NCBI RefSeq assembly: GCF_964194155.1
Contig: NC_135891.1
Location: 24,676,001 to 24,740,000, forward strand
Direction: 5' to 3'
DNA: 64,000 bases
From: Cetorhinus maximus
Taxonomy: Eukaryota
Positions 54,723 through 63,310 of the stretch are shown one piece after another; position 1 is the first letter of the stretch, and every line of letters starts with the position of its first letter. The notes under the pieces were generated by a model that did not search any database, had not been told where the DNA came from, and worked only from the letters and a program-made list of their open reading frames with translations. A program made the position numbers and the translations under genes.

Positions 54723-55981
54723 TCAAGCCCTGGCAACCCAGCTGAAGGAGCGTTGAATCAAGGCCTCCCTGGTGTCCCTGCTTCCTGGAAGGTTCATCAA
54801 GTCTGCCTTCTTGTCCTCACCATGTGTCTGCCTGGGCTTCTCATCAGATCCATCTGTAGAGTCTTCATCTGAGGCCTGTGGAGCTGCCTCAGTATCCTCA
54901 TCCTCGTGTGGGTCCTCCCTTGCCAGTGCCAGATTGTGTGGCATGTAGCAGACTATGATAATAAGCAACACGCGCTCTGGAGGAGATTGTAGGGAACCCC
55001 TGGAACGTTCCAGGTAGCGCAACCTCATCTTCAGTAGCCCGATTATCCACCCAACCACCACCCTTGTGGAGGCATTGTGTACCTCTCTTTTGCCTCTGTC
55101 CTAGGGTGCCGGAGTAGTGTCATAAGCCATCCTTTCAACGGATACCCTTTGTCACCCAGCTGCCAACCATCCAGCTGAGCTGGAGCCACAGACAGCCTTG
55201 GCACCTGGGTGTGTCGCAGGATGTTTGAATTATGGAAGCCCAGGTACCTTGCATAGACTTGCAGAATCTGGGTCTTGTGATTGCATACTAGCTGCATGTT
55301 CATGGAGTGGCAACCCTTCCTAATCACAAAGGCACATGGCAGAACCGCTGGCACCTTGATGGTCACATGAGTGCAGCCTATGGTATGTTGGATGCAGGGG
55401 AACCCAGCAGTAGCTGCAAAGCCTCTGGCTTGCTCAGTCTGGCTGGCTTCGTCCATCCGGTAATGAATGAATGTGAGGACCCGTCTGAACAGAGTGTCAG
55501 TTATGAGATTGACGCAGCTATGGACAGATGATTGGGACACTCCACACAGATACCCCACTGACCCCTGGAAAGATCCAAATACATAAAAATTGAGGGCTAC
55601 TGTGACCTTCAGAGCCACTGGCGTTGGGTGCCCACCCACACATTTGGAGGCGACCGCTGGCCCAATGATGTCACGGTATCCCTAGAGAGGCGGAGCCTCC
55701 TGCAACAGTGGACCTCTGACATGTTGAGGTAGCTCAATCACTGCCTGTACACTCTGGCAGCAGGGTAGTGGCGTCCTCTGAGGTCTTGCCCACCTTGCTG
55801 GCCCTGCACCCACTGTGCCTCTGCCTCTGCCTCTCCCCCCACAGGCCTCTCCCATGCAAGGCTGCCTGCGGACACCTGGCCTGCTCTCTCTTCTGCCCCT
55901 CTCTTCCTCCTCTGAGGAGGTGCCCCCAGTGAAGTACACAAGCCCCATCTGTTGAGATGCAGATGGCACTGCCCCGTACAC
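54723..55981 (-). pseudogene. Harbinger (HARBI1-like, DDE_Tnp_4-type) transposase, frameshifted
   Basis: VALKVTVALNFY..GSFQ, GVSQSSV, AGFP...IGCTHV, RKGCHSMNMQLVC, LGDKGYPLKGWLMT, IIGLLKMRLRYL; first catalytic D and the E replaced by G; stops and frameshifts. Confidence 0.92.
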
Positions 55982-59985: not shown

Positions 59986-60581
59986 GCAGCTGTTTTGCGG
60001 CCCTACAAACAGCCAGCCTGTCAATTATATTGGCTGTCGGATGGGAAACAACTGACGATGTAAAAAACGCCCTGCAGTTAAATCCTGCTGTACACGTAAG
60101 ACATCCTTCAGGCCTAGATTGGGTGAAACAGTAAATTAGAATAAATTTGAGTGCTATCAATTCGACTCAAAACTCGTCTAGGCTGATGGGCATGAGGACA
60201 AGTCAGATAAAATGAAAGGAGAAAAACACGTGTACATATGAGTGCTAGACTCTGTAAAGACATGCCCTACAGTTGTTGTGAAAGATGATAGACTATTATA
60301 AGTAAAAGGAAGATGTTAATTGTGCAAACTGTAAGAGGCCTTGAATCCAGAAGAAGCTATATAACCAACTTGATTCAATGGAGTTACTTCTTTACAAACA
60401 TTTTACTAATAAGATTTTAGGAAGTTTTGTCAAACTACAACATAACCCAAAAAGGAAAGGACATTACAGGAGTGAAGTTAGGATAAAAGCAAAATACTGT
60501 GGATGCTGGAAATCTGAAACAAAAACAAAAATTGCTGGAAAAACTCAGCAGGTCTGACAGCATCTGTGGAGAGAAAGACAG

Positions 60582-60620
60582 AGTTAACGTTTCGAGTCCG
60601 TATGACTCTTCGTCAGAACT
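60582..60620 (-). ncRNA. Minimal type I hammerhead ribozyme motif, intact core
   Basis: AGUU-CUGACGA-A-GAGUC-AUACG-GACUC-GAA-ACGU-U-AACU: stem I AGUU/AACU, 5-bp stem II, palindromic ACGU in place of stem III, GUU cleavage triplet. Confidence 0.75.
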
Positions 60621-60625
60621 TCATC

Positions 60626-60664
60626 AGTTCTGATGAGGAGTCATACAGACTCAAAACATTAACT
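60626..60664 (+). ncRNA. Minimal hammerhead ribozyme motif, mutated core
   Basis: AGUU-CUGAUGA-G-GAGUC-AUACA-GACUC-AAAACAUU-AACU; GAAA changed to AAAA and ACGU to ACAU, both at CpG sites. Confidence 0.55.
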
Positions 60665-60981
60665 CTGTCTTCCTCTCCACAGATGCTGTCAGACCTGCTG
60701 AGTTTTTCCAGTGACGTTAGGATCATTTGCACCTATTTTTGAGGCACCACAAGTGTCTGTAGAGCTCCAAACTGTGATCCACACTACCATAAACTGCTGG
60801 GGTGAATTGAGGTGGACACCATATTGGTAAGTGCGTGTGCAGTGAACAGCTGCCAGAAATATGCGGAGCAGATAGATCATGATGTTAATCAAAGAGCAAT
60901 ATTAACTTGATGCCATTTTGATTCTGAGCAACAGCCTGAAGGAAGAAGTGGCTCAGTAATATCATCACAGCTTGACATACT

Positions 60982-61260
60982 ATGGATCAACAAATTATTT
61001 TATTCTGGGCTGTTCAACATGAAGCCCACAGAAAATACGGCTCACAGTCCTTCCTGTCTTCTATCACAGAGGTCTTGGATGACATCACATGGGACAGTGT
61101 GGACAAACTACTAATCCTGGGCAAGCTGACAAAGGTTGTTGGGTCCTTCGAGATGAGTAAAACTCCCAGAGTGATGTCTTATTGGCTGAATTGTATTCAA
61201 CTCTATGGGATTGATTGTACCAGACCTGCTGAAAGCATACAAGAGTATGCTTCTGGCTGG
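60982..61260 (+). mobile_element. Possible RTE-like endonuclease remnant
   Basis: EVLDDITWDSVDKLLILGKLTKVVG resembles the APE motif DKLI.LGDFNARVG; catalytic residues lost. Confidence 0.35.
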
Positions 61261-61263
61261 CAG

Positions 61264-63310
61264 TGTTGTGTATTGCACTGAGGAAATATTAACATGTGGA
61301 CTCACAGTTGGCAGCCATTATTGAACTAACTTTATTTACACCACCCCAACAGAGAGGACAGCAGAGAGGGAAATATAACAAAATGCTCAGATCTTGCAAT
61401 GTACCACACTCCTTCACCACGTAACACAAACACAACTTATACATTAAAATGTAAAGTGGTACATGTACCTAAGTTCCCAGAATATGACTAAACCAATATC
61501 AACAATACCTGAAAATTTAATAGGTTGGGTTGCATACTTGTTTTTACCGTAACCACAACCAAAACTATATGACCGATACTACCAGAGTAATTCACATGTG
61601 GTATTTAACAAAAATATCAACATTTTACAAGAAAGATTGAAAATAACAACTTAGGCCTTCTTCTTTCCTATATACTTTTTATGAACCTACCTGGCTTCTT
61701 TCTCTCTCTGCCTGGGTATCTCCTTCCATTTCCATTAACTTGATTCTACTCTCTCAACATCTCTGACTGTGTTAAAACTGAACTTTGACCTTGAATACCA
61801 ACTCCACTTAATGGTTGGAACTGTGACACTGATTGATTTGTTTTAATTAAAGACCCTGACTCACTTTGCTCTACCGCTGGATTCTTTTTCACTTTCACTT
61901 TCTTTCTGACTTTCACTTTGGGCTGTTGGAGGAATTTGGGTTATAAGATGTTTATCATGCTCTCCTTTTGTCAGATTCCCTCTTTCAAGCAAATGATCTA
62001 CATGAAACTGATACAGTCTCTCTCCAGTCTTCACTAGATATGTGAATGCACCTAGTCTTTTCACAACAACTCCAATCACGTACTTCTCCTTATCACCTTG
62101 GTGTTTTTTATGCCGTGACCTTCTGACCAGCAGTGAATTCTCTAAGTTTCATGCCTCATGTATCGTGACTCATCTTCACTTTCTCTTGCTTTTCTCTTAC
62201 TTTGCTATTGACATCGGTTTAAGCAAACTAAACCTTGTCCTAACACTAACTTTCTGTCTGATAACCAATTCTCAATCCATACTGGTATGTTCCCCCAATT
62301 CCATACCCTCTAATTTTATTTACTAAACCTGTGTGGGACCTTATCAAAAGCCTTCTGAAAATCCAAATACACCACATCCACTGGTTCTCCTTTAGCTATA
62401 CTACAAGTAACATCCTTAAAAAGCTCAAGTTTGTGTGACATACTCCTGCAATTTCTCATCATCGCATTCTTTAGACCAGCCATTCATGGCATAATTGAAC
62501 ACTTTGCTGAGCACCATATCCTTGCGAGTTTCTTCATTAATTTCCCTGGCAGCCTCTGGCATGACACTTGTGAATACAAAGTAATTCACAGATAACTCTG
62601 GCAAGAAAAAAAAGGTTTCATGGGAAATATCGAAAGAATTTCTGCATTAGTATGGTCTGCTGACTTATAAAATCTAATATCATACTGATGGCTAATTTTA
62701 TCATTAGGTCCTCCTTGCTCAAAGATCACATTGTGCTCTCTTAGCACTTCCTCAATGACAGATGTACTCTTACTGACCCCTACTGTAAATAACTCGGCGC
62801 AGTTTAACCATACCTTCATAAGCCCATCAGGGAGGCTTTGTTCCCTCCTACTACTACCAATGGCAAATAGTAGGGTGCATCATTGTATTCCACTGTTAAT
62901 TAACTTGACCTAGCACTGGAATACTGTTGTTGGAATTATTAGTCAGTTTCACACCAGATTTGCATAAAGGAAGGTGACTTAGGGACCACTTGTACTCTCC
63001 TTCCGAGATAACAGACATGGCTGTATCAGCAATAAAAGTAAGTTTTGAATCTCCAACTTTTTGACTTGGCACTGGAATTTTATCTTCAGCTCTATCAATC
63101 TCCATGTGTAGCTTTTCATGCACTCTGACTGTGCACAACTCTTGATTTTCCTGCTGGATAACATCAACTTCTTTTTCCACATCTATCATATGAGCATTCA
63201 AGGATTTCCAAACTCCTGAACTATCTTACGGTCTATCACAACCTTGACTTGCTGCATAGCTGTGACCTGGAGCTTCACCACAATCTGCAACATGGTCCAA
63301 ATTCCTCCTA
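61264..63310 (-). mobile_element. Gypsy LTR retrotransposon remnant (3' LTR, integrase C-terminus, protease)
   Basis: Short LTR candidate TGTTG...CCACA 61264-61408 with purine tract on minus; GVVVKRLGAFTYLV...HVDHL; YDIRFYKSADHTNA; LTFIADTAMSVISE; small CR1 RT piece inserted at about 62325-62420. Confidence 0.75.

What the first reader, a model, noticed from the sequence alone, without database searches (positions are those of the whole stretch)
60471..60723. Tiny fold-back insertion with two opposed hammerhead ribozymes and a 14-bp target duplication
Seen: near-perfect 86-bp inverted arms whose inner ends each begin exactly at the 5' strand of hammerhead stem I; the minus-strand motif has an intact CUGANGA/GAAA/GUH core with a palindromic ACGU replacing stem III; the plus-strand motif is disabled by CpG-type transitions; the unit is bounded by a 14-bp direct repeat with one mismatch. 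The spacer also forms a small secondary palindrome (cttcatcag-tt-ctgatgagg). Established: Penelope-like elements carry minimal type I hammerheads in their pLTRs, thought to act as dimers, and often insert with an inverted 5' pLTR. Inference: either an extremely truncated PLE insertion or a member of a non-coding, retrozyme-like family mobilised as a unit; transcription from either strand would give a long dsRNA hairpin containing one ribozyme and its antisense.
Basis: partly seen in the sequence, partly recalled or inferred. Interest (0 to 1): 0.7.

Follow-up and report, generated by a model that had tools for sequence, protein, structure and literature searches.

The report
Twice-primed Penelope retroelement hairpin stub
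This small hairpin is one of hundreds of mirror-image stubs left by a known kind of jumping gene (a Penelope-like retroelement); it is ordinary in itself, but the stubs' ends suggest that each was likely built at its landing site by copying the uncut front end of one RNA twice, once from each cut DNA strand.

Summary
In detail: 86-bp arms, 14-bp duplication, intact minus-strand minimal hammerhead, plus-strand copy dead (G12A). It is not a unit-mobile retrozyme. It is a stub insertion of a Neptune-like Penelope element (RT plus GIY-YIG parent found), with the published layout: inverted copy, one-sided tail, TSD. At least 153 fold-backs meet at the same point, with varied junctions. Family data constrain the mechanism. 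52 of 52 junction-selected loci carry the tail on exactly one arm. Inner ends pile up at the A of AGUU (25 of 78 ends in 5 nt), 29 nt below a TATA-like box, and not at the ribozyme cut. The two arms share source variants and template class. 19 of 50 junctions have a 1-nt loop, too tight for snap-back. Best model: both nicked target strands prime on one uncleaved RNA starting at AGUU, and the two cDNA ends are joined. The start site is predicted, not shown; no RNA data. The insertion is shared with two related organisms, so no empty site was seen. This scan noted the same thing before (251 notes, at least 22 genomes).

The parts
60471..60484 (+). Left target-site duplication (14 bp); its last bases resemble the parent RNA just beyond the tail (likely priming microhomology)
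   Evidence: TSDs of 9-18 bp, 24 of 45 at 14 bp, found in 45 of 48 junction-selected loci scored
60484..60620 (-). Long arm: complete short pLTR copy, from the A of AGUU (60620) to the end of the tail
   Evidence: matches the parent pLTR
60484..60517 (-). Penelope tail (~34 nt), present on this arm only; lies between the two inferred RT start sites
   Evidence: tail on exactly one arm in 52 of 52 loci; tail = interval between two RT starts in vitro (PMC11167929)
60582..60620 (-). Minimal type I hammerhead motif with intact core; palindromic ACGU at 60590-60587; predicted cut 60586/60585; activity untested
   Evidence: features as in PMC4209133
60621..60625 (.). Spacer TCATC, a short copy of neighbouring arm sequence, likely a templated insertion made when the two cDNA ends were joined
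60626..60711 (+). Short inverted arm, from the A of AGUU to an internal start 52 nt in from the tail end; lacks the tail
60626..60664 (+). Second hammerhead motif, disabled: G12>A (60653), G16.2>A (60658), loop II G>A (60647), bulge A>G (60637)
60710..60723 (+). Right target-site duplication, overlapping the short arm by 2 nt (AG)

Best explanation
This is a short insertion of a Neptune-like Penelope retroelement, likely built at the landing site when both nicked target strands primed reverse transcription on the same uncleaved RNA. Shown: the arms are pLTR sequence of an RT plus GIY-YIG element; the tail sits on one arm only; both arms stop at the A of AGUU; junctions differ between copies. 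Inferred: (1) the RNA starts at that A, from a predicted TATA-like/Inr promoter in the pLTR, either as the 5' leader of the full-length mRNA or as a short transcript from a downstream pLTR; (2) the endonuclease nicks the two strands about 14 bp apart; (3) one 3'-OH primes at the tail end and the other about 35 nt inside (52 nt here), helped by a few bases of microhomology; (4) both cDNAs run to the RNA 5' end, straight through the uncleaved hammerhead; (5) the two cDNA 3' ends are joined blunt, by 1-3 nt microhomology or with a short templated insert, and filled in. The two opposed hammerheads are a by-product. This copy is an old, decaying insertion with no sign of function.
For: Parent: RVT_1 E=1.9e-7, above cut-off; GIY-YIG E=4.6e-4, just below cut-off; C-x4-CxxC linker. 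Tail on exactly one arm in 52 of 52 loci picked by junction alone; none with two or none. In 99 loci picked by tail alone, 40 have an adjacent inversion; 27 of these 40 outer ends lie at reference 26-37 and none reaches the tail. Inner ends: 25 of 78 ends in the 61-200 interval fall in 131-135 (binomial p 2e-17). Junction patterns of equal design: 153 loci at AGUU, 21 at an arbitrary position, 10 at the cut site. Template class is coupled: if the tail arm passes position 140 the other arm does too in 16 of 16, otherwise in 3 of 24 (Fisher p 1.5e-8); in 13 of 13 copies with an arm ending at 131-135 the partner does not pass 135. Arms of one copy differ at 5.3% of non-CpG sites versus 8.2% between copies, 0 of 5000 permutations as low; the diagnostic base at reference 50 agrees in 41 of 41 scorable copies. 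19 of 50 listed junctions have a 1-nt loop (counted by eye). The inverted arm reaches further in than the tail arm in 20 of 40. A TATA-like word starts at -29 in 27 of 37 long copies, before TT-A-GTTC. Two of the 12 upstream pLTRs shown begin at about +1 and run on into the ORF (L204, L206). Raw DNA reads of another sample give loose ends at reference 1 and 34 and strand-switch joints at +1. In vitro, the anole PLE protein extends both strands from two internal start sites and does not need ribozyme cleavage (PMC11167929).
Against: No RNA evidence for a start at +1. The box is TATATTT, not canonical. The same stretch also reads as a 3' splice site (CTCAT, pyrimidine tract, TAG), and in D. virilis an intron ends at the 5' end of helix I (PMC4209133). 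A cap-derived extra G is not resolved: before AGTT, 14 G, 14 C, 4 A, 2 T by eye, much of it explained by templated inserts. In 5 of 49 copies the arms differ at a 2-nt indel, 3 of them with a linked substitution (L002, L008, L018), which one RNA does not explain. The test for 5'-leader versus downstream-pLTR origin was flat (mean match beyond the tail 2.5 versus 2.2 nt, p 0.9). End positions come from BLAST against one reference copy and are blurred by microhomology. The in vitro data are from the Poseidon clade and saw no strand preference of start sites.
Confidence: 0.72

Rival explanations
1. Same double priming, but on two sibling RNA molecules held in one particle (a protein dimer, or a hammerhead dimer paired through ACGU), usually from the same source locus.
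For: 3 of 49 copies have arms with different linked haplotypes. Minimal hammerheads need dimers (PMC4209133). The anole protein is predicted to be a dimer (PMC11167929).
Against: Independent RNAs give no reason for a strictly one-sided tail (52 of 52) or for coupled template class. Rare variants are shared between arms in 15 of 49 copies. L018's odd arm looks recombinant, which fits gene conversion.
Confidence: 0.13
2. Self-priming: one cDNA folds back and copies itself, stopping about 35 nt short of the tail because protein still covers it (the reading offered for palindromic junctions in PMC3846280).
For: Explains identical arms and a one-sided tail. 9 of 40 inversions have inner ends within 3 nt of each other. 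Several spacers are small palindromes.
Against: 19 of 50 junctions leave a 1-nt loop and 2 leave none. In 20 of 40 the second arm holds sequence that the first lacks, by up to about 630 nt; this would need frequent later deletions.
Confidence: 0.07
3. The shared stop at AGUU is a reverse-transcription roadblock or a processing point at a 3' splice site, not a transcription start.
For: Branch-like CTCAT, pyrimidine tract and TAG directly precede the stop. The D. virilis intron ends at the 5' end of helix I.
Against: A chance roadblock should give mixed copies (one arm stopped, one through); 0 of 13 were seen. No common upstream exon appears in the listed spacers, and several non-inverted stubs run straight into their TSD.
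Confidence: 0.15
4. A non-coding retrozyme- or SINE-like hairpin copied as a unit from a few master fold-backs.
For: Hundreds of similar-sized fold-backs; some junctions recur (32 and 7 exact matches).
Against: The recurring junctions occur in both orientations relative to the tail and in different subfamilies. Arms track each copy's own variants. Inverted arms come in all lengths up to about 1.2 kb. The motifs are head-to-head, not tandem.
Confidence: 0.04

Closest known systems
EN+ Penelope-like insertion with inverted pLTR, optional 30-40-bp tail and TSD (Adineta Pen2a, PMC3846280; general scheme, PMC8557442; passages read)
   Same: Inverted 5'-truncated copy next to a pLTR, tail on one end, TSD, TATA/Inr-like motifs in the pLTR.
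   Different: Here there is no ORF between the arms, and both arms stop at one fixed base. PMC3846280 reads palindromic junctions as self-priming; the family data here favour two primers.
Poseidon element of the green anole in vitro (PMC11167929; main text read, supplements not)
   Same: Both target strands extended, two internal RT starts that bound the tail, uncleaved RNA as the main template.
   Different: Different clade. The text read does not describe head-to-head products, a strictly one-sided tail or a fixed 5' stop. Its ORF starts inside the hammerhead; here the long ORF seems to start beyond the tail.
Minimal hammerheads of metazoan PLEs (PMC4209133; main text read)
   Same: Short helix I, bulged base before stem II, G10.1-C11.1, palindromic 15.2-16.2. 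The paper already notes pairs of motifs 100-700 bp apart on opposite strands in Schistosoma.
   Different: The two motifs here are 5 bp apart and on opposite strands, so one transcript holds only one of them and it is buried in a hairpin.
Non-LTR retrozymes (bioRxiv 10.64898/2026.07.22.740005; first part and passages read)
   Same: Non-coding, PLE-derived, hammerhead-bearing.
   Different: Defined as head-to-tail tandems with a ribozyme in each unit; this is a head-to-head pair with a TSD.
L1 twin priming (recalled; no paper read)
   Same: Second target strand primes on the RNA and gives an inversion joined by microhomology.
   Different: In L1 the two cDNAs copy adjacent parts of the RNA; here they copy the same part, with starts about 35 nt apart.

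Membership tests
EN+ Penelope-like element (Neptune-like) | Parent with RT and C-terminal GIY-YIG endonuclease | tested here: met
   RVT_1 in 4 of 6 frames tested, one above cut-off; GIY-YIG in 2 of 9, below cut-off at E 5e-4 and 7e-4; both lie upstream of the same pLTR.
EN+ Penelope-like element (Neptune-like) | CX2-5CxxC linker between RT and EN | tested here: met
   CNHKRCNTC in L130; feature taken from PMC8557442.
EN+ Penelope-like element (Neptune-like) | Placement in the Neptune clade on an RT tree | not tested
   No reference PLE proteins were at hand; the clade rests on the linker only.
EN+ Penelope-like element (Neptune-like) | pLTRs from partial tandems | tested here: met
   12 of 20 loci with the 5' ORF part have a direct pLTR just upstream.
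EN+ Penelope-like element (Neptune-like) | Inverted truncated copy, one-sided 30-40-bp tail, TSD | tested here: met
Minimal PLE hammerhead | CUGANGA / GAAA / UH core, bulge before stem II, G10.1-C11.1, palindromic 15.2-16.2 | tested here: met
   Minus-strand motif meets all; plus-strand motif fails at G12. No Rfam hit.
Minimal PLE hammerhead | Self-cleavage as dimer or with protein | not testable with these tools
   No pile-up of copy ends at the cut site, so cleaved RNA is rarely the template in this subfamily.
Non-LTR retrozyme | Head-to-tail tandem units, each with a ribozyme | tested here: not met
   Head-to-head pair at this locus.
Non-LTR retrozyme | Mobilised as a unit with inherited structure | tested here: not met
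Non-LTR retrozyme | Circular RNA expression | not testable with these tools
   No RNA run on record among the holders.
MITE / fold-back DNA transposon | Symmetric terminal inverted repeats and fixed TSD length (recalled) | tested here: not met
   Ends asymmetric in 52 of 52; TSD 9-18 bp.

The most novel reading that the evidence does not exclude
The stubs are a genomic record of the unsolved PLE integration step: one RT-endonuclease dimer copies the 5' leader of a single uncleaved mRNA twice, from two target nicks and two start sites about 35 nt apart, and joins the cDNA ends. This would explain the inverted pLTR and the one-sided tail together, replace the self-priming reading, and map the PLE start site to the first base of the hammerhead, which makes the ribozyme the very 5' end of the mRNA.
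Probability: 0.5. Interest if true: 0.62.

Novelty: new member of a known kind. Interest (0 to 1): 0.38.

Why it matters
The single insertion is ordinary. The family statistics bear on an open question: how Penelope-like elements, the closest retroelement relatives of telomerase, make inverted ends and a one-sided tail. They give sharp predictions for an existing in vitro system: opposite strands of one target should use different start sites, both arms should carry one RNA barcode, and the RNA should be capped at the first base of stem I. Hundreds of dispersed 170-230-bp hairpins could also feed dsRNA silencing or editing when read through; that is untested.

Tried and rejected
Rfam scan: no hammerhead family, only miRNA hairpin models below cut-off. 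Empty site: contigs of two related organisms (runs X7, X11; X8 on the right side only) run from unique flank into the element, with 22-23 differences in about 710 flank bases, so the insertion is shared and no empty allele was seen. Expression: no RNA holder listed; one run guessed to be RNA, held as contigs, could not show starts or splicing. Cut-site templates: 10 loci, 2 exact, against 21 at a control position; this pattern covers only the long-indel subfamily. Cap-derived G: inconclusive. 5'-leader versus downstream pLTR: flat. Arm homogenisation after insertion: TSD pairs differ at 3.0% (19 of 639, biased low by detection) against 5.3% between arms, so no sign of it, but the locus sets differ. 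Pfam missed RT in 9 of 9 short frames and found it in longer ones. L120 was left out of the arm comparison because its inverted hit is a different subfamily; L013 duplicates L007; L009 fell below the overlap filter. Four of 52 loci were not scored for TSDs because the script's tail pattern missed them. Paper searches found no account of twin priming in PLEs or of these stubs. Subscription papers, Repbase/Dfam entries and the supplements of PMC11167929 were not seen and may hold it.

Full report
Observation. The sequence is as described. Inverted arms lie at 60535-60620 and 60626-60711 (80 of 86 complementary, spacer TCATC) and a 14-bp repeat with one mismatch bounds the unit. The minus strand from 60620 carries a minimal type I hammerhead with an intact core, a 4-bp stem I, a 5-bp stem II and palindromic ACGU; the predicted cut is between 60586 and 60585. 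The plus-strand copy has lost G12 and G16.2 by CG>CA changes. Rfam has no matching hammerhead model. The left arm is 50 nt longer than the right.

Family. A DNA search gave 2803 candidates; all 40 scored covered most of the unit. A 44-nt tail pattern has 2272 exact matches. I fetched 99 of the first 100 listed, all on contig C1 and picked by the tail alone. In these, 40 have an adjacent inversion, 43 stop at or before reference position 140, 38 run more than 260 nt into a longer element, and 20 are short fold-backs. Scaling 20 of 99 to 2272 gives roughly 460 short fold-backs among exact-tail copies; this is a rough lower figure.

Parent. [quoted passage not shown] These are Neptune-type features according to PMC8557442 (passages); no tree was built. 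Twelve of 20 loci holding the 5' part of the ORF have a direct pLTR upstream, and two of these begin at about the A of AGUU. So the stub equals the first ~137 nt of such a unit, and also the last ~137 nt of any copy.

Outer ends. In 52 loci picked only by junction patterns, the tail is on exactly one arm every time; the other arm starts at reference 29-43 in 36, at 49-60 in 8 and further in for 8. Seven of these loci were already in earlier sets. Among tail-picked inversions, 27 of 40 outer ends lie at 26-37 and none reaches the tail. Raw DNA reads of another sample show large loose-end piles at reference 1 and 34. TSDs are 9-18 bp, 24 of 45 at 14 bp. Flanks match the parent's continuation beyond the tail for a mean of 2.2-2.5 nt against 0.5 in a control, which fits priming by short microhomology or a start that wanders by a few bases. 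PMC11167929 (main text) shows that the anole PLE protein cuts and extends both strands and starts at two internal sites that bound the tail.

Inner ends. 25 of 78 inner ends between 61 and 200 fall in 131-135, the AGUU of stem I (p 2e-17 against uniform). Junction patterns of equal design give 153 loci there, 21 at an arbitrary position and 10 at the ribozyme cut. So the template was uncleaved, as in vitro. In long copies the A is preceded by TT and by a TATA-like word at -29 in 27 of 37. The same bases also look like a 3' splice site, and a D. virilis intron ends at this point of the ribozyme (PMC4209133). A roadblock would give mixed copies, but 13 of 13 copies with one arm ending at 131-135 have a partner that does not pass 135, and 16 of 16 long tail arms have long partners. 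A real RNA 5' end fits best. It is predicted, not observed.

One template, two cDNAs. Arms of one copy differ at 5.3% of non-CpG sites against 8.2% between copies (49 copies, 0 of 5000 permutations), agree at a subfamily-diagnostic base in 41 of 41 scorable copies, and share rare variants in 15 of 49. Against a strict one-RNA rule, 5 of 49 differ at a 2-nt indel, 3 with a linked substitution. Snap-back of one cDNA is disfavoured: 19 of 50 listed junctions have a 1-nt loop (counted by eye), and the inverted arm reaches further in than the tail arm in 20 of 40. Copying as a unit is disfavoured: the window's junction recurs in 7 loci, 3 in one orientation to the tail and 4 in the other, in different subfamilies and with different TSDs.

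This copy. Contigs of two related organisms run from unique flank into the element at the same place, with about 3% flank divergence. The insertion is therefore older than that split and decaying. No empty site and no RNA evidence were available. In a read-through transcript the intact ribozyme would sit inside an ~86-bp helix, so it would likely not fold.

Comparison. The layout is published: inverted pLTR, tail at one end, TSD (PMC3846280 and PMC8557442, passages), and close opposite-strand hammerhead pairs were noted in Schistosoma. Retrozymes are head-to-tail tandems. PMC2377424 (passages) places the D. virilis promoter inside the pLTR, TATA-less. Six paper searches did not find the strict one-sided tail, the coupling of arms or the fixed stop; unseen papers and supplements may hold them. 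After I had stated my reading, the scan's index showed 251 notes in at least 22 genomes with these words, and the listed ones mostly reach the same model. They are unchecked AI notes and not independent support. Two of them report starts at the cut site in other genomes; this subfamily shows no such excess.

Verdict. Real, a new member of a known kind, ordinary as a single locus. The family-level pattern is a useful and testable constraint on PLE integration. Identity as a PLE stub is about 0.97; the full mechanism about 0.72; interest 0.38.

Noticed in passing
window 55043-55681 (-): Open frame of 212 aa that resembles a Harbinger/HARBI1-type DDE transposase fragment (label recalled, not searched).
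   Followed up: no
window 61040-61400: High-copy repeat pieces just downstream of the stub (depth peaks); not identified.
   Followed up: no
window 60617 to 60483 joint in runs X7, X8, X11: Contigs that go back 135 nt, i.e. head-to-tail tandems of the short pLTR unit somewhere in related genomes; these would be retrozyme-like.
   Followed up: no
L103, about 100-330 nt from the tail: Three extra tandem copies of a ~43-nt unit spanning just the hammerhead.
   Followed up: no
L123:5221-7600: A 2.4-kb palindrome of the same element, arms about 1.2 kb, 91% identical.
   Followed up: partly
L002, L008, L018: Fold-backs whose two arms carry different linked haplotypes; two templates or gene conversion.
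   Followed up: partly
parent pLTR, e.g. L196:2110-2250 (-): An ATG inside the pLTR, right after a splice-acceptor-like CCACAG, opens about 30 codons through the tail to a TGA; the long ORF seems to start in the same frame about 45 nt past the tail.
   Followed up: partly
L042, L043, L056: A related Penelope subfamily inserted into or beside copies of this one.
   Followed up: no
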